Origin: Gekko japonicus
Taxonomy: Eukaryota
Reading direction: 5' to 3'
Assembly (NCBI RefSeq): GCF_001447785.1
Contig: NW_015174324.1
Coordinates: 276,004 to 340,003, forward strand
Length of the DNA stretch: 64,000 nt
Made by a program: the position numbers and the translations under genes. Below are positions 11,402 through 57,218 of this stretch, piece by piece. Each line of letters opens with the position of its first letter. Positions within the stretch are counted from its first letter, which is position 1. Under the pieces are notes generated by a model that ran no database searches, had not been told where the DNA came from, and saw only the letters and a program-made list of their open reading frames with translations.

Positions 11402-11754
11402 CTAGGTTGGGGGGAGGGAGAGATCAAAATATATTTCACATTCCATTACAGATATCGAAATCCAGACTACTTTCAAAATATAGTTCTATGGACTGATTTC
11501 CTGCTTTCTACTAGTGCAAGTAGATAATTGCCCTTTCCCTGGCATGCCTTTTGACCCCTCCAAAAAGATATGCTAGTGATTAGAGGAAGATCTGCATGGA
11601 CAAAAAAACCCTGGTTGAGGGGCTGCAGTAAGAAGAGGAATCAAGCAAGATCATCCAACCTCCCTCTTAACACCAATGGAAATAATGGTAGGATCCAACA
11701 TTACTATGTTTTGACAGCAGTATAATCCAAACCATAAAAATAAAGTATATTTAC

Positions 11755-13361
11755 AGTGGCCAAGCACTTCTTTCTTTATAGCTCCTGGCTTCCTTGGAGA
11801 AAGGGATTTTGAACTTGGTGCAGTCATAGCAGCTGAAAGCTTCAGTTTATCAGGCTTCTTGTCTACACAAGACCCACTAGCAGAGAACTGGAAGACGTCA
11901 CTTTCTGCTGGAGAGCCAAAGTCTAACTTGGGCTTCTGTGAGAAACAGTGTTTGGCATGATAGTGCTGATGGGCAACTGCAAGCTCACTGAAATTTCTGT
12001 TGCATGCTCCACATCTCACAACATACAATTCTTTTTCAGCTTTGTTGACTGTGTGGCCTGCAAGATGATTAAGCATGTCAGAATGGCTTTGTGTTGTTGA
12101 AGAGCATGAGGTGCAGCGAAACCACAGGTTACCTTTTGCAAGCATGGCTTCTTGGCACTTCTTGTAATCTGCTTTTCTATTTTCTTTGGAGATGTATTTC
12201 TCTCGACAGCCACAGTTTAGAAGGCTGCTTTCTTCTATCGTCTCAAAGATTTTGATTGATGTTTCTGCTGCTGCAGACACACATATGTAATCTGTGCTAT
12301 GGAAACCCTTAAAGTGAAGTAAAAACTCTTCCTCGACATCAAAAAAGAGGTCACCACAAAATCCACAGAAATGTTTAATCTGTATAACATTATTATGCTT
12401 ATCCTGGCAGTGTCGGTGCAGTGTTTCTATTTTCCGAAATGTAACTTTACACATGGCACAGCTGTATCTGTGAAAATGATGGCTCTCTAGTGACATGCAA
12501 TGCTGTTTCACAGTATCTTCCGAGTCAAAGACTTCCTCACATAAGCAGCACTGCCATTTCCCTTGGTGAGACAGTTCCTCAGACAGGTCCATTGGACTTG
12601 CAGGTGGAGACAGCTCCATAGGGGTCGAAGACTGGTTTTCTATCTCAAGTGATTTATCACAGACTGAGTCTGTAAGTCTGTCAAAAGATAAAGCATGCAC
12701 ATCCTCACTAACATACTTCTCACAAAAGTAGTTATGTCCACCATGAAATTCAGTCACGTGTGCCATTACATCATCCGCTTTCTGAAGATCTACATTGCAG
12801 GACTGACACCAGAAGAGGAAATCAGCCAAGTGTGCTCCTCCATGGAACCTGCTCATGTGCAAACGGATGATGCTTGTACTTTCTGCAAGCTTCCCACACA
12901 CAGCACACTTGTGGCATATTCTGTTTGAAGAAAAAATATGTTTTTCTACTAACTCTTCAGAAGGAAATGTCAGATGGCATTCACACATCCAGGTTTTCAC
13001 GGTGTGGGCATTACAAGTCTCTTGGCTGTTGTCTTCCAAAACCCTTTTTTGTTTTGAAATGGTTTCACTCTGATCATCCATGGCCAAAGATCGCTTCAGA
13101 GGAGAAGACTTTACAAGGCTTCCAAGTTTCTTAAGGTAAGAGACATTTTTATTGGCATGGCAAAATATCAAGATTGATTGTTCCATTGTAGTGAGAATTT
13201 TAACCTTGTGCAAGGTTTTGCAAGTATGCTGACTGACACCGTTGTAATCAACAAACAGCTCATTGCAGCTCTGACAGAAGCCTTTCACTTTAAATATTTC
13301 AGCAACTTGGGAGATATTCTTTTCTGACACAGCTACTGGACCGGCATTATGACAACGAGTT
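11755..13361 (-). CDS. ZNF451: ZNF451 exon 10, large multi-C2H2 zinc-finger exon
   Basis: 1607 nt open frame (ORF track 11651..13330), phase 2->1; IRLHMSRFHGGAHL, GKWQC, KIETLHRHCQD and GNLWFRC match human ZNF451. Confidence 0.97.
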
Positions 13362-13982
13362 CTGTAATTGGAAAGGAAACAAACAAAAATGACTTTGCAG
13401 CTGTAACTCTAAACATGTTCCAGTGTCCACTCAAAAGCAGTAAATATTCTTGATGCCAGCTTTGTATTACAGTATAATTTACTTTTTAAATCCAGTTTAA
13501 GACTACCCATACCCTTCTGCCACAGAATGCCTCCTATTCTTGAAGTAGACATCTCAGAACATCTGTCAGAATCCTTTAAAACCATGACTGGCAGCTGGCT
13601 CAGTGCACTGAAAGCAGTACATGACTGCTGTCTTAGCCTTTTAAAAGGCAGAAGTGAACACACACACTATATATATGAAAAAGTACAAATATTTATTAAG
13701 GTGTACACGTGTTAAAACATACATTCAAAGACCTATGGCCCATCACTAATACCAGGAGTCCAATTATAAGTAGACAAGGTAACTTTATCTTTAATAGAAT
13801 CATTTTTTATGTAATAATGGTTTCTTTTATACATTTGGACAAAATAATGATGTTGTTTCTCTCCCCCCCCCCCTTTATTTTTCTTTGAACAATTTCAGGA
13901 AAAAACATCTGGTTTAATTATATGGATACTAGAATTCTGTAACAGGTCTTTGAATGTATGTCTATAATATATAGATAATAGT

Positions 13983-14024
13983 GACCACTGAGGAAGGCCC
14001 TTAGGGGCCGAAACGCGTATGGTC
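13983..14024 (+). ncRNA. Minimal type-I hammerhead ribozyme (Penelope-associated)
   Basis: GACCA-CUGAGGA-A-GGCCC-uuag-GGGCC-GAA-ACGCGU-A-UGGUC: stem I GACCA/UGGUC, stem II GGCCC/GGGCC, palindromic stem III ACGCGU, intact core, GUA cleavage triplet. Confidence 0.8.
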
Positions 14025-14328
14025 TTCAGTTGTAAAGTTTTTACCCATCATTTGTATGTAGAGTGGACAAGCTGTTACAGTCTGATTTTAGACAAAGCAA
14101 TTTTTAATCAGGAAAGTTTTAACATGTGTACACACACACACCATTGCACATTACTGCTTTTCCAGCAGTGGAAATACACTTCGGCATTATGGTTGACTAT
14201 TCACAGTTCTGTTTAGACAAACAAATGACAAAGGACACACAAGAACAGAAGCTGGGCTTAATATCCAACAGCTGTTTAGAAAGATTGATCTGAAGTCAGA
14301 TTTTACAAGTGTTAAAACTCTCACAAAC

Positions 14329-15846: not shown

Positions 15847-16567
15847 TCTATGGATATCTAAATTCATGGATCATGGTCACATGGACTGACATGGTTATAA
15901 TCAACAAACGGCTCATGGCAGCTCTGACAGATGGTTCTGCAAACTTTGGGGACCCCCAGGTTTGCAGAAAAGTCTGAAAATACATTGGGTTTAAATCTCC
16001 CCCACCAAAAAAAAAAAGTTTGCCCACACCTGTACTGAGGCTGCAATGCTGCAAGCAGGGAGACAGGTGGGGAAGTCACCAGCCCCATTACCATTGAGGG
16101 TGGGAAGCTGCCAGGTGGGAAAGCTGCCACTGTTGCTGTGGGGGGAAGCTGCTGGGTGGGCAGCTGGGAGAGCCACAATTGCTGGACGTGGACGGCACAG
16201 AGAGTCACCATTGCTGTGTTTGCAGCAGAGCTGTCAGGCAGCCAGAAGAGCCACCAGGCGAGTGGCTGGAAGAGCTGCCACCACTGGCATAAGGGGGAGA
16301 AGCTGCCAATGAGAGGGCAGCAAGGAGAGTTGCCGCGGGTGGGGGCAAGCTGCTGGGTGGCTGGGAGAGTGACGGAATGGGGGGGCAGCGGGAGAGTGAT
16401 GGGGTGTGGAGGCAGAAGCAACTAGTATGGAGGAGAGAGAATAACAGAAGGGGTGACAGGAAGAAGAAAAAAATGAGAGACTGAGAGAAGTAAAGGTAGA
16501 GAGGAGGAAGCAAAGGTGGAGAGAATGGGATGGCCATTCCCACAAGTTTCTTGCAAGTGACCACCTG
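15847..16567 (+). mobile_element. Non-autonomous Helitron-like element carrying a ZNF451 exon-10 fragment
   Basis: A|TCTAT 5' end; 3' degenerate hairpin CCCACAAG-TTT-CTTGCAAG then CCTG|T; GC-rich low-complexity interior. Confidence 0.55.
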
Positions 16568-18634: not shown

Positions 18635-18984
18635 GGAGCTGCGGTGGCTCGAGTGGTTAAGACGCTGAACTGCAGGCTGTGGAAGGTCAGTAGTTCAGCA
18701 GTTCGAGACCCGCGTGTGCCGCATGACGGAGTGAGCTCCCGTCTCTGGTTCCAGCTCCTGCCAACCTAGCAGTTCGAAAGCAAGAAATTGCAAGTAGATA
18801 AATAGGTACCACTTCGGTGGGAAGGTAACAGCATTCCATGCACCTTGGTGTTTAGTCATGCCGGCCACATGACCACGGAAACGTTTTCGGACAGCGCTGG
18901 CTCTTCGGCTTTGAAACAGAGATGAGCACTGCAACCCTAGAGTCGGATTCGACTGGCTTTCGAGCAAGGGAACCTTTACCTTTT
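18635..18984 (+). mobile_element. Sauria SINE, full length
   Basis: tRNA head, GCCAACCTAGCAGTTCGAAAGC core, (ACCTTT)n tail; perfect 13-bp TSD TATTACTGGAGAT (18622-18634 / 18985-18997). Confidence 0.92.
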
Positions 18985-19487
18985 TATTACTGGAGATAAT
19001 TTTACAAACTGCTATGGGAAGACTGTTCCCAATATTAGAATTCACAGGTAGATAATGAGAAAACAATTCTAGTATTTTCTTTCTTTTAATACCACATTCC
19101 TAAATGTCTTCTGCAGCATACATATACATAGTAAAAAGGAGAAATTCCAATCCCAACCAAAGAGTACAGTGGCTGAACTGCTAAGGAATTTTCAAAATCA
19201 AGTAATCCATATGTACAGACATTGATAGCTGTAATATTTTTTATCTGTTCATGACTGACAGATCCAAGGTGAGCTTCATGATTCAGTGGGGGTATGATCT
19301 CAAATGCTAAATGCTATACAGTCTTTCCTCCTAAGCTAGGTGAACTATAAAGAATCAAAGATAAATTCTACATCTTAAGAGTACCTCTGAAGAGGTTAAT
19401 ACATAGGGTCTCCCTCTGAATGTTATTCTTTGGAGGGGAAAGAACTTGCCATTTTCTTTAAAATAACTCCTATCCTCAAATTCTTAC

Positions 19488-22867: not shown

Positions 22868-23460
22868 CAGGGGTGCCATATGGCCCGCAGGCCAGATCTG
22901 GCCCCTGCACGGCTCCTATCCAGCCCATGAGCAACTGGCTCTCTGCTGCTTCCTGTTCCTGCTTCCTTCATTGCAGCTGCTTTTGCCCAGTTTCTCCTAT
23001 TTCCTGCTTTGCAGAGGAGAGAAAGAAAGCCAAACCTCCCTTTCCTCCATTGGCTGAGGGCTCCTTCTCCGCCTCCAGGGGGGGAGGGGGGAGGAGAGAG
23101 AGAGAGAAATGGAGTCCCCTTCTCTTTTGAGAAGATCAACAACGTTTTATTCCAGGTATAAGCTTTTGTGTGTGTGCAGACTTCTTCAAAGGAGGGGGGA
23201 TGAGGAGGAAAGGGGGGGGGAGAGAGAGAGAACGAGAACTGTGTTTAAGACCAACAATGTTTTATTCCAGCTTTTGTGTGCAAGCACACTTCTTCAGAGA
23301 GAAAGGGAGGGGAAGAGAGGGAAGGAAAAAGAAAGAGCCAGAGAGAGCATGCCAGAGAGGGAGAGAGAGAAAAATGGAGTCCCATGGCACTTGGAGAGAT
23401 CTCCCTTTTCATTTCTAACAGATGGGGGGTGGGGAGAAACCTAACAGCACAGCTTGCATT
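22868..23460 (+). mobile_element. hAT-type MITE 5' part with embedded Penelope fragments
   Basis: CAGGGGTG...GGCCCGCAGGCCAGATCTGGCCC start typical of hAT MITEs; similar to 57219-57600. Confidence 0.5.
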
Positions 23461-24078
23461 CTTTATTACTGGAAGGGAGCGAGAGTCCAGCGAGAGTCCA
23501 GTAGCACCTTAAGGACTAACAAAATTTGTGGCAGGGCATGAACTTTCATGAATGACTGCTCACTAGGTTTTCTGTCTCATTACCAATGCTGATATCTTCA
23601 CACCTACTACTTCTCTGCATACCACTCCCAATGAGTGAAGGCCACCCCTTGACTGTCCCTGTGGTGGTGGTGGCAGTGATTCTGCAGCCCCCTCCTGAAT
23701 TTTCGACCAGTGCCTCAGAATCACTAAGACTGCCCCTGCATGTTTATGCTTTGATTTCTCTTCAGCCTTAATTTTACTTGAGCCTCTTGACTCCCCAATG
23801 TCCACCTGTGCAATATACATTTCTGTCTCTAAATAAACTCCTTTTTAAAAAGAAAAGCCTGAAATCACTGATACAACACTTGAGCATCCCGTCATGCTTC
23901 TAAACAGCTCTGCAGACAACCCAAGGAAGGAAGGAAAGGATTAACTTCAGAGTTTGGTTGGTTTGTTTCACAACTCCTTAGCCCAAAAAGAGTCCCACCT
24001 ACCTATAGCTAGATGCAGTAACGTCTTCTCACAAATCATCCTACTGCTGGTGACAGCCAAAGTGTCCCTCCCCTACAC

Positions 24079-30984: not shown

Positions 30985-32690
30985 TGTCAGTTAGCATTGC
31001 CATTCTCTGGAATGTGTGGGAGGAATCCTCCTGGCCTCTGCCTGGTCAACTAATAAAGTCTACTGTCTGGGTTTTATCTGCTTTTGCTTTTCTGACCTTG
31101 GATGTGCCAGCTGCTACCGACTCGCTGGGAACAAACGGTTTCTACTTTGCCCGCTCTCTTTTCCCTGCGCACGCGGACATTGCTTATTGGCCATTGCTTA
31201 TTGGCCTTTGCCCACCCCCGGCCACCTGTGGGAGGTGATCTCCATGGATTTCATCACTGATTTACCTCCCAGCCGGGGGGAAACGGTTATATGGGTGATA
31301 GTGGATCTTTTTACCAAGCAAGCCCATTTTGTCCCATTTAAGTCCATGCCTACGGCTCGCCTTCTGGCCAAAGCATTTATCCAACAGGTCTTCAGGCTAC
31401 ATACTTTGCCCTGCAAGATAATCTCCGACCGTGGGGCGCAATTTGTTTCCAAGTTCTGGAAGGAACTCATGGACCTGTTGGGGGTGGAGCGGGGCCTGAG
31501 TAGCGCTTACCACCCAGAGATTGATGGCCAAACGGAATGGGTAAATCAAACCCTGATGCAGTACCTCCATTGTTTCACCAACTATCAACAGGATGACTGG
31601 GAGGGGCTCCACCCTTTTGCCGCGTTTTGCTACAATAATGCATGTCACTCATCTACGGGGGTCTCCCCGTTCATGGCTCTCTATGGATATAAGGCCCCTC
31701 CCCTCCCTTTCCTGACGGACTCTACCCTGCCTGAGGGGGATGTGGGGGAATGGTGTCAGCGTTTGCGGGACGCATGGCCGGTCCTGTGCAAGACTTTGGA
31801 TAGGGCCAAAGACACTTATAAAGCACAGGTTGACAAAAAACGTTCTGAGGGCTGGGACATCCAGCCAGGGCAATTGCTCTATGTTTCCACTAAGAACATC
31901 CAGGGTCTTCACCCTATGCGTAAACTGGGGTGGAAGTTTATCGGCCCTTTTCATGTGTTGCGTAAAATCAATGATGTGACTGTTGAACTGGAGTTGCCTA
32001 AAAATTTAAAGTTACTGCATCCCATTTTCCATTTCAGTCTCCTAAAACAGGATCCTGGACCTAATGTTTGGAGACCCCAATGAGCGCAGCCGCCTCCCCT
32101 GTTGATGCAAGGCAAACAGCATTTTGAAGTGGCCGATATTTTGGACTCCAAGCTTAAGCGAAATAACTTGTACTATTTGGTGGAATGGGCTGACTTTGGG
32201 CCGCAACATCATGAGTGGATGGAGGTGGGTTCACATGAAGGCCCCTTGTCTACTGCACAAGTTCCACCATCGTTTCCCGGGTAAACCGGGGGAGAGCTTT
32301 TGTGAGGGCAGGATGTCAGTTAACACTGCCATTGTCTGGAATGTGTGGGGGGAATCCTCATGGCCTCTGCCTGGTACACTAACGGAGTCTACTATCTGGG
32401 TTTTATCTGCTTTTGCTTTTCTGACCTTGGATGTGCCAGCTGCTACCAACTCGTGTGGGAACAAACGGTTTCTACTTTGCCCGCTGTCTTTTCCCCGGAT
32501 GCGCGGACACTGCTTATTGGCCTTTGCTTGTAGGGTGTGTGTGTTTTGAACCTAGTATAATTCAGGGTGCCTTGATGCTTCGGGCCATTCCTGAAACAAG
32601 AAATACACGTGTCGTAGTTATGAACTACCAATAAACAGAATTCTTCTTATGAAGCGCTGTCTGGTGTGATCTGACTATCAAACCCTGACA
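30985..32690 (+). mobile_element. Internally deleted Gypsy/chromovirus LTR retrotransposon (partial 5' LTR, integrase + chromodomain, PPT, 3' LTR 32314-32690)
   Basis: LTR repeat at 30985 and 32314; TSD cctga/cctgg; integrase motifs WEVISMDFITDLP, IISDRGAQF, HPEIDGQTE, KFIGPF; chromodomain FEVADILDS...YYLVEW. Confidence 0.92.
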
Positions 32691-34213: not shown

Positions 34214-35102
34214 CTAAGGAAGTAAACAAGCATTTATCTTCAGAGATTTCTCTATATAACAAAGAAATATTTTTATAAAACTCAGGTATCAATGCATTTG
34301 CCTAAACACAATTATAGAGCTGGGACACTGTTCATTTATTTGACTGCTTATTAAAAACAGTGGTCAAATATTCTGGGAATCTAAGAAAATCCCTATGTTG
34401 GCAGAAGCATACTCATTTAGTTGCATCATGGGCCCAATTCCCTCATTCTTAGGCAGTGAGATTGAAAGTAAATCGAGTTTATTCCCTTTTTCACTTAAGA
34501 TCTGTGACTAACAAAGTGGGTAACTGGTGTTAAGACTACAGGTGGATAGCCGTGTTAGACCACAGTAGCAGAACAAAATTCGACTTCTATAGAGTTTTCT
34601 TTATATCTGATGAAGTGAGCTTTGACTTAAGAGTCTTTCAGGTACTACTGGACTCAAAATCTGATACAGAATAAAGACTGTATGTTATTCTGTCTACTTT
34701 CAAAGAAAGCTGCTTCTACAATGTTTCAGAGGGAAAACATTATGGTAGAATCTTATATAGGTGGTATTTGGCTGTATGAAAGTAACAGGAAACAGTGCAC
34801 TGGATATTTGATATTTTCATGAATTGAGAAACATTCATAGATGGGAGATTTTTTTCTTTGTATTTTTGGGACAAAAGGTGCTGGTGAGATAATCTGGGAA
34901 AATCCTTCTGAAAACTGCTAAACTGACTTTTGATCATACACTAGATTATGACTATTAAATGGTATTATAAAAGACTTTAGTATTAAATGAACAGCTTACC
35001 AAGTAGGAATTTTAGTTTACTAAAAAGACTAGTATTAGTTTTGCTGTTAATGTATTGGTAGGAACAGCTAACTTGTGTTTTTCTCCCCTTCTATATGTAA
35101 GG

Positions 35103-35285
35103 AGAAAAGAGCAAGAGTCCAGTAGCACCTTAAAAAACTAACAAAATTTGTGGCAGTGTATGAGCTTTGTTGAGTCACTGCTTACTTCTTCACAAATTTT
35201 GTTAGTCTTCAAGGTGCTACTGGACTCTTGCTCTTTTCTACTGCTATGGACAGACTGACACGGCTACCCATCTTGATCTATATGT
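35103..35285. mobile_element. Penelope-like element remnant forming an inverted repeat
   Basis: GAAAAGAGCAAGAGTCCAGTAGCACCTT...ACTAACAAAATTTGTG arm and its reverse complement about 40 bp downstream; related fragments at 23480-23565 and 34535-34660. Confidence 0.7.
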
Positions 35286-35399
35286 ATGTGTACATGATAA
35301 ATACAGTAAAGGGAGGGACTTCACAAGCTGAAGCCACTTCACATTTAGATACAAAATGGTGGATACTCCTGAAACAGCAGACAACATTTCCCTCTAGAA

Positions 35400-55934: not shown

Positions 55935-57018
55935 ATTCTGGGAATGGAACGACAAAGACGCCTCTAGGAGTAACAAAATTGTTCTGCGGCTGGAATGAGA
56001 GACCAGGGAGTGGATTGACAGCCCCAGGGTGTAGCAGGAGTGTTCAGGGACTGGGATGAGAGACCCCAGAGTGCAATGAGAGCCCCTAGGACTAACAAAT
56101 GTATTCTGGGACTGGAATGAGAGACCCAGGGTGTAGCAGGAGTGTTCAGGGACTGTAATGAGAGACCATGGAGGGGAATGACAGCCCCAAGGTGTAACAG
56201 GAGTGTTCAGGGACTGGAACATAGACCATGGAGTGGAATGACAACCCCTGGGGGTAGCAGGAGTGTTCAGGGACTGTAATGAGAGACCATGGAGTGGAAT
56301 GCCAGCTCCTGGGGGTAGCAGGAGTGTTCTGGAACTGGAATGAAAGGTCCCATATTGGAATGACTGCCCCTGAGTGTAGCAGGAGTGTTCAGGGACTGGG
56401 ATGAGACCCCCCAGAGTGGAATAACAGCCCCTAGGAGTAACAGAAATGTTCTGCGACTGGAATGAGAGACCATGGAGTGGAATGACAGCCGCAGGGTGTA
56501 GCAGGAGTGCTCTGAAACAGGAATGACAGGCCACAGACTGGAATGACAGCCCCAGGGTGTAGCAGGAGTGTTCAGGGGCTTGAATGAGAGACCACGGAGT
56601 GGAATGACAGCCCCTGGGGGTAGCATGAGTGTTCTGAGACTGGGATGAAAGGCCCCAGAGTGGAATGATAGCCCCTAGGAGTAACAAAATTGTTCTGCGA
56701 CTGGAATAAGAGACCATGGAGTGGAATGACAGCCCCTGGGGGTAGCATGAGTGTTCTGAGACTGGGATGAAAGGCCCCAGAGTGGAATGATAGCCCCTAG
56801 GAGTAACAAAATTGTTCTGCGACTGGAATAAGAGACCATGGAGTGGAATGACAGCCCCTGGGGTTTGCAGGAGTGTTCTGGAATCAGAAGGACAGGGCCC
56901 AGAGTGAACTTTCAGCCCCAGGGTGTAGCAGGAGTGTTCAGGGACTGGGATGAGAGGCCCCAGAGTGGAATGGCAGCCCCTAGGGGTATCAGAAGTGTTC
57001 AGGGACTGGAATGAGAGG
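55935..57018. repeat. Minisatellite with about 61-bp unit (about 18 copies) and a 122-bp higher-order repeat
   Basis: Consensus approx. GGACTGGAATGAGAGACCATGGAGTGGAATGACAGCCCCTGGGGTAGCAGGAGTGTTCA; near-identical 122-bp blocks at 56621 and 56743. Confidence 0.92.
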
Positions 57019-57218
57019 TAAACTGTGTATTTGAACTTGTAAAGTAGGGTTATTTTTGAAAGTGTAGTCTATAGATAATATGTGCCTTATAGTGTTACTC
57101 TAATCAGAAGTAAATTAGTAAACCATTGTTACATAACATATGTGGGAATCATAGGTATTCCTTCTCTTTCTCCTGCATATGCTTTTTAATTGCTTGGAGC
57201 GTTCTCAAAGGCATTAGA

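What the first reader, a model, noticed from the sequence alone, without database searches (positions are those of the whole stretch)
13983..14024. Intact minimal hammerhead ribozyme in ZNF451 intron 9, antisense to the gene
Seen: full core CUGAGGA/GAAA, perfect stem I (GACCA/UGGUC), stem II GGCCC-uuag-GGGCC, self-complementary stem III ACGCGU, predicted cleavage after GUA at 14019, one extra A after the CUGANGA box. Known: this is the architecture of minimal type-I hammerheads in Penelope-like elements and retrozymes, which often cleave as dimers via the palindromic stem III. Its CpGs are intact while other copies here have decayed, so it is young or conserved. It would cut only plus-strand (antisense) RNA.
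Basis: partly seen in the sequence, partly recalled or inferred. Interest (0 to 1): 0.7.

Follow-up and report, generated by a model that had tools for sequence, protein, structure and literature searches.

The report
Hammerhead in a Penelope retrotransposon end
The small self-cutting-RNA motif is real, but it is one of over a thousand similar motifs in this genome and sits in a broken-off end of a young Penelope-type jumping gene that landed backwards in a ZNF451 intron, so it is a known kind of passenger that likely does nothing to the host gene.

Summary
The 42-nt motif is exactly as described and is not chance (0 hits in 150 simulated windows; stems covary across families). It lies in a 465-bp insertion (13669-14133): a 5'-truncated, partly inverted pseudo-LTR of a young Neptune-type Penelope-like element, whose longer copies carry RT and a GIY-YIG-type endonuclease directly upstream. 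The genome holds 25 identical motifs and 1,120 of this build. The extra A and palindromic stem III are published traits of Penelope minimal hammerheads. It is antisense in a spliced ZNF451 intron, has no partner copy, and the motif is no better conserved than its flanks among young copies: young, not selected. Not a retrozyme (no same-strand pair in 225 loci). Side result: the element has two GT-AG introns; spliced copies almost never extend upstream of a likely start site (1 of 41) while intron-keeping copies do (18 of 19), which bears on why these elements keep introns. The scan noted such spliced leader copies before on other DNA. Cleavage is untested.

The parts
13983..14024 (+). Minimal type-I hammerhead motif; predicted cut 14019/14020
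13731..14133 (+). 5'-truncated forward piece of the pseudo-LTR of a Neptune-type Penelope-like element (97.8% to L002 over 403 nt); stops about 65-100 nt short of the element's usual 3' end/tail
13779..13898 (+). Retained 120-nt GT-AG spliceosomal intron of the element (second of two); precisely absent from 46 of 64 genomic junction matches and from RNA reads
13669..13718 (-). Inverted copy of the element's 3' end, head to head with the forward piece; reaches about 32 nt further 3' than the forward piece; holds no hammerhead
13721..13734 (-). 14-nt inverted piece of the element at the inversion junction (likely template switch)
13658..13667 (.). (AC)5 left of the insertion; with (AC)6 at 14130-14141 a likely microsatellite target; a target-site duplication cannot be told from the repeat
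13362..14328 (-). ZNF451 intron that holds the insertion (967 nt, joint 14329 to 13361)
11755..13361 (-). Large ZNF451 zinc-finger exon downstream of that intron

Best explanation
The motif is the hammerhead of a Neptune-type Penelope-like retrotransposon, carried in a truncated and partly inverted copy of the element's terminal repeat that inserted into an (AC)n tract, antisense in a ZNF451 intron, and it is likely inert there. Shown: the repeat family, its link to an RT plus endonuclease ORF, two spliced introns upstream of the motif, the repeat's 3' end followed by an ORF start in a related subfamily, the antisense intronic position. Inferred: in an active element RNA starts about 30-40 nt after a TATA-like box in the repeat, the two introns are spliced, the hammerhead lies in the 5' leader and again in the 3' repeat, and it would cut weakly, as a dimer through ACGCGU or with help from the element's protein; the window copy was reverse transcribed from uncut, intron-retaining RNA, probably the 3' repeat. 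Here it lacks the promoter region, exon 1, a partner hammerhead and the right strand, so it would not cut ZNF451 pre-mRNA.
For: 40 of 40 scored candidates (of 1,314) match the 201-nt query at 95-100%; 25 exact 42-mers, control 0; 1,120 motifs of this build, control 1. L002 runs without break from the endonuclease ORF end through both introns to the motif; sister copies give RVT_1 hits, 2 of 3 above the Pfam cut-off, and one 386-aa ORF shows CxxCxxC, IYCIQCPCGKLYLG, H..H and GLN motifs. L136 shows repeat end, then ORF1 ATG. 5 of 12 pairs change on both sides, 97.6% of cells paired, slid controls 15-47%. Among 57 young copies non-CpG substitutions are 2.5% in the motif vs 1.6% in flanks, CpG 10%. 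Published class traits match (PMC4209133; PMC8557442). Single minimal motifs did not cleave in vitro; the anole element's motif cleaved only with its protein and mutants still inserted (PMC11167929).
Against: No cleavage test. Pfam did not recognise the endonuclease: its identity rests on motifs read by eye against PMC8557442. No RT tree was built, and no complete intact element was found. Libraries were unstranded and reads cannot be assigned to this copy, so antisense transcription of the locus is not excluded. No orthologous locus could be compared.
Confidence: 0.93

Rival explanations
1. Host-domesticated intronic ribozyme that regulates ZNF451 or an antisense RNA, like the conserved amniote intronic hammerheads.
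For: Core, stems and all three CpGs are intact in this copy; the intron is short and next to a large exon.
Against: Antisense to the gene; 11 of 57 other young copies are letter-identical and 33 of 57 intact; copy is 97.8% identical to another over 403 nt; stem III cannot stand alone and no partner is present.
Confidence: 0.03
2. Monomer of a non-LTR retrozyme (tandem 150-450 bp repeats spread through circular RNA).
For: Short non-coding unit with a type-I hammerhead; most copies lack any ORF; a preprint derives retrozymes from such repeats (10.64898/2026.07.22.740005).
Against: 0 same-strand pairs among 225 motif-bearing loci of 290 examined (some loci overlap), 11 opposite-strand pairs; copies are colinear from start site to tail, not permuted at the cut site; contiguous with a Penelope ORF in longer copies. 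A short-contig assembly could hide arrays.
Confidence: 0.03
3. Chance arrangement of letters.
For: Rfam finds nothing.
Against: 0 in 150 simulated windows; 1,120 vs 1 in the reversed-pattern control; covariation.
Confidence: 0.005

Closest known systems
Minimal hammerheads (min-HHR) in pLTRs of metazoan Penelope-like elements (Cervera and De la Pena 2014, PMC4209133; parts 1-2 of 4 read: results and discussion)
   Same: Type I, 5-bp stem I, extra nucleotide between 9 and 10.1, G10.1-C11.1, palindromic 15.2-16.2/loop 3, mostly solitary and genome-wide, reported from reptiles, intron upstream as in D. virilis.
   Different: Stem II is 5 bp (paper: often 7-8); a small palindromic helix III as in their insect/rotifer variant; two introns, the second ending 84 nt before stem I rather than at it.
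Neptune clade of endonuclease-bearing Penelope-like elements (PMC8557442, passages and section 15; PMC3846280, passages)
   Same: RT, Cys-rich linker, C-terminal GIY-YIG-type domain with CCHH, upstream ORF in another frame, 5' truncation, inverted piece at the 5' end, variable tail, microsatellite target.
   Different: Most short copies here are precisely spliced, whereas these papers stress intron retention and call its significance unknown.
PAc / Poseidon of the green anole (PMC11167929, parts 1-2 of 4 read)
   Same: Reptile element with pLTR hammerhead; copies span the cut site uncut; 3' ends cluster at two or three places, as internal initiation predicts; no RNA ends piled at the cut.
   Different: PAc's ORF starts inside the hammerhead; here the ORF1 start lies some 250-300 nt downstream (L136), and the element has the Neptune linker.
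Animal non-LTR retrozymes (PMC7229834, passages; bioRxiv 10.64898/2026.07.22.740005, parts 1-3 of 5)
   Same: Type-I hammerhead in a short AT-rich non-coding unit.
   Different: No tandem units; minimal, not canonical, motif; carries introns and joins a Penelope ORF.

Membership tests
PLE minimal hammerhead | CUGANGA, GAAA and UH core in type-I order with stems I and II | tested here: met
PLE minimal hammerhead | Extra nucleotide between 9 and 10.1; G10.1-C11.1 pair | tested here: met
   A13995, G13996-C14009; G invariant, pair kept as GC or GU in 24 of 24 distinct rows. The extra A was part of the search pattern.
PLE minimal hammerhead | Minimal palindromic helix III | tested here: met
   ACGCGU; self-duplex -7.5 kcal/mol
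PLE minimal hammerhead | Located in the pLTR of a Penelope-like element | tested here: met
PLE minimal hammerhead | Self-cleavage (weak, dimeric or protein-assisted) | not testable with these tools
   needs in vitro assay
Neptune-clade PLE | RT followed by C-terminal GIY-YIG endonuclease | tested here: met
   RVT_1; endonuclease by motif only, no Pfam hit
Neptune-clade PLE | CX2-5CxxC linker and CCHH motif | tested here: met
   definition from PMC8557442. Nematis and Naiad share the linker; Naiad has the endonuclease N-terminal.
Neptune-clade PLE | pLTR, 5' truncation, inverted 5' piece, tail, microsatellite target | tested here: met
Neptune-clade PLE | Placement in RT phylogeny | not tested
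   no reference proteins were fetched
Non-LTR retrozyme | Tandem units each with a hammerhead | tested here: not met
   0 same-strand pairs in 225 loci
Non-LTR retrozyme | Abundant circular RNA | tested here: inconclusive
   no back-joint at the cut site listed in 4 runs; libraries not suited
Conserved intronic amniote hammerheads | Low copy number and conservation beyond flanks | tested here: not met
Conserved intronic amniote hammerheads | Kept at the orthologous site across species | not testable with these tools
   no relatives of this genome are held

The most novel reading that the evidence does not exclude
This family's genomic copies answer why Penelope-like elements keep introns: the template is sense RNA; reverse transcription starting at the tail of the 5' leader gives short, spliced, promoter-less dead-end copies that begin at the start site, while initiation at the 3' repeat, which is mostly left unspliced, rebuilds promoter and introns; both run through an uncut hammerhead, so cleavage is not the step that makes the template.
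Probability: 0.55. Interest if true: 0.55.

Novelty: new member of a known kind. Interest (0 to 1): 0.27.

Why it matters
The motif itself matters little: it is an expected passenger of a known element class already reported from reptiles. The family around it is a useful natural experiment. Published work leaves open whether intron retention comes from an antisense template or an unspliced sense RNA (PMC3846280) and calls its significance unknown (PMC8557442). Precisely spliced copies show sense RNA is copied, and their 5' ends map the start site without any RNA experiment.

Tried and rejected
Cleavage footprint in genomic copies: in the window's family 4 of 23 5' ends fell at -2..+2 of the cut (expected 0.66, P 0.004; P 0.28 for any 4-nt window). 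The replicate in a second family gave 3 of 36 (P 0.10), all at -2, where a cleavage product cannot start, with an equal peak in loop II; ends spread over the 11 nt before the cut. Not supported; stalling at the structure or microhomology fits as well. RNA ends at the cut: none piled in three unstranded RNA-seq runs and one contig set, weak evidence. Selection on young copies: none. Spliced copies as one SINE-like subfamily: rejected, starred branches force at least 3 changes and labels are no more clustered than shuffles (38 of 61 rows usable). Ungapped 5'-end walk failed for unspliced copies at an A-run indel; values were used. Rfam, PDB sequence search and Pfam for the endonuclease found nothing; the Atlas did not hold the protein. 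No indexed holder was on record as RNA. No full-length intact element found.

Full report
Observation. A relaxed descriptor finds it as the only compact hit in the window, a strict one finds it and nothing in 150 simulated windows, and it folds into stems I and II with z -2.67. Rfam has no match. The minus-strand ORF at 11654-13408 is ZNF451 by Pfam, and RNA data join 14329 to 13361 across CT..AC ends, so the motif is antisense in a 967-nt intron. The intron number was not checked.

It is part of a young repeat. A 201-nt query gave 1,314 candidates; the 40 scored match at 95-100%. The genome has 25 exact 42-mers and 1,120 matches to a pattern for this hammerhead build against 1 for the reversed control. 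In the window the insertion is a forward piece 13731-14133, a head-to-head inverted copy of the element's 3' end at 13669-13718 and a 14-nt inverted filler, between two (AC)n runs. No other copy of the family and no ORF remnant lie in the window.

The repeat is the terminal repeat of a Penelope-like element. Copy L002 runs from an endonuclease-like ORF end through to the motif. Longer copies encode an RT (RVT_1) and then a CxxCxxC linker, a GIY-YIG-like stretch, CCHH residues and a terminal GLN; Pfam did not name that domain, so this is a motif reading against PMC8557442 (passages), where the linker separates Neptune from Penelope/Poseidon. An upstream ORF overlaps the RT frame, as that paper's figure legend allows. 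In related copy L136 the repeat's 3' end is followed by the ORF1 start. All long copies seen are broken; no intact element was found.

The structure is under selection in the element lineage, not at this locus. Across the window copy and the first 30 of the 1,120 matches (24 distinct rows), 5 of 12 pairs change on both sides and 97.6% of cells pair, against 15-47% when partners are slid; stem III was fixed by the search pattern and says nothing. Among 57 young copies the motif has 2.5% non-CpG substitutions against 1.6% in flanks and 10% at CpG; 33 of 57 keep core and stems, 11 are identical to the window's. Intact CpGs thus reflect youth.

Introns. The 120 nt at 13779-13898 are a GT-AG intron, precisely missing in other copies; a second one lies upstream. 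By hand count 46 of 64 junction matches are spliced for intron 2 and 66 of the first 100 of 131 for intron 1. RNA reads show both joints, though they may come from spliced genomic copies. I fetched 60 of the 131 in contig order, skipping six already held (five of them unspliced). Only 1 of 41 spliced copies extends upstream of a narrow zone, against 18 of 19 unspliced (Fisher P 4e-13); the zone begins 29 nt after the start of a TATA-like run. Spliced copies are not one clade. In a second family (93 segments from the first 100 of 355 matches) there are again two introns, and 32 of 40 measurable intron-1-spliced copies begin within 42 nt; but 7 reach further upstream, one of them into the ORF, and 2 of only 3 unspliced copies also begin in the zone. 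So the start-site clustering repeats; the contrast was not replicated.

How it likely works. In an active element RNA would start in the repeat, lose two introns, pass the hammerhead and enter ORF1; the repeat recurs at the 3' end. Internal initiation of reverse transcription, shown for the anole element (PMC11167929), would give short spliced copies from the leader and intron-keeping copies from the 3' repeat. The window copy keeps intron 2, so it likely comes from the latter. Copies span the cut site, so their templates were uncut. Single minimal motifs did not cleave in vitro and dimers did weakly (PMC4209133); the anole motif needed its protein and was dispensable for insertion. In a two-strand fold of the bare motif, stem II strands pair between copies rather than stem III. 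Here there is no partner, no promoter region and the wrong strand, so it is likely inert.

A lead that failed. 5' ends looked enriched at the cut in the window's family (4 of 23) but not in the second (3 of 36, all at -2). I do not claim a cleavage footprint.

Comparison and novelty. All testable traits of Penelope minimal hammerheads are met, including the extra A; the 2014 paper already reports them from reptiles. Retrozyme membership fails on tandem arrangement. Searches for spliced or intronless genomic Penelope copies and for cut-site ends listed no paper whose passages I read reports them; most subscription papers, Repbase notes and all supplements were not seen, and D. virilis transcripts are known to be mostly spliced (PMC2377424, passages). 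Earlier AI notes of this scan describe spliced leader copies in other genomes and similar relics in this genome; I read them after my own tests. Verdict: real, ordinary member of a known class, with a modestly interesting family-level observation.

Noticed in passing
L049 and L050 near 1500; L043:4775: ORF1 and the RT ORF overlap in different frames at a run of T's followed by A, a likely -1 frameshift site; a frameshift after ORF1 is mentioned in PMC8557442.
   Followed up: partly
L053, L054, L056, L060-L062, L064-L070: About half of 24 loci holding the RT ORF's start share an upstream region; in those printed (L056 part, L060, L062) it is a degenerate (CCCTAA)n tract next to an inverted piece of ORF1, probably one insertion amplified with telomere-like repeats.
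   Followed up: no
window 15884-15931: 48 nt that are 90% identical to ZNF451 exon sequence 13231-13278, sitting in the next intron.
   Followed up: no
window 23262-23300, 23489-23560, 35100-35330: Decayed hammerhead-like relics inside other inverted repeats, probably another Penelope-type family (family name from recall).
   Followed up: partly
window 14019; L216-L245: Position 17 varies among A, U and C between subfamilies (30 A, 26 U, 1 C, no G in 57 copies where G was not excluded by the search).
   Followed up: partly
L080, L106, L328: Exceptions: ORF-linked copies with spliced introns, or with only one of two introns spliced.
   Followed up: partly
window 55960-57060: 61-bp tandem array of at least 15 units.
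   Followed up: no
window 30995-32549: Integrase-like ORF between 142-nt direct repeats, an LTR-retrotransposon remnant by appearance.
   Followed up: no
window 18635-18985: Short repeat with very high RNA read depth in two runs.
   Followed up: no
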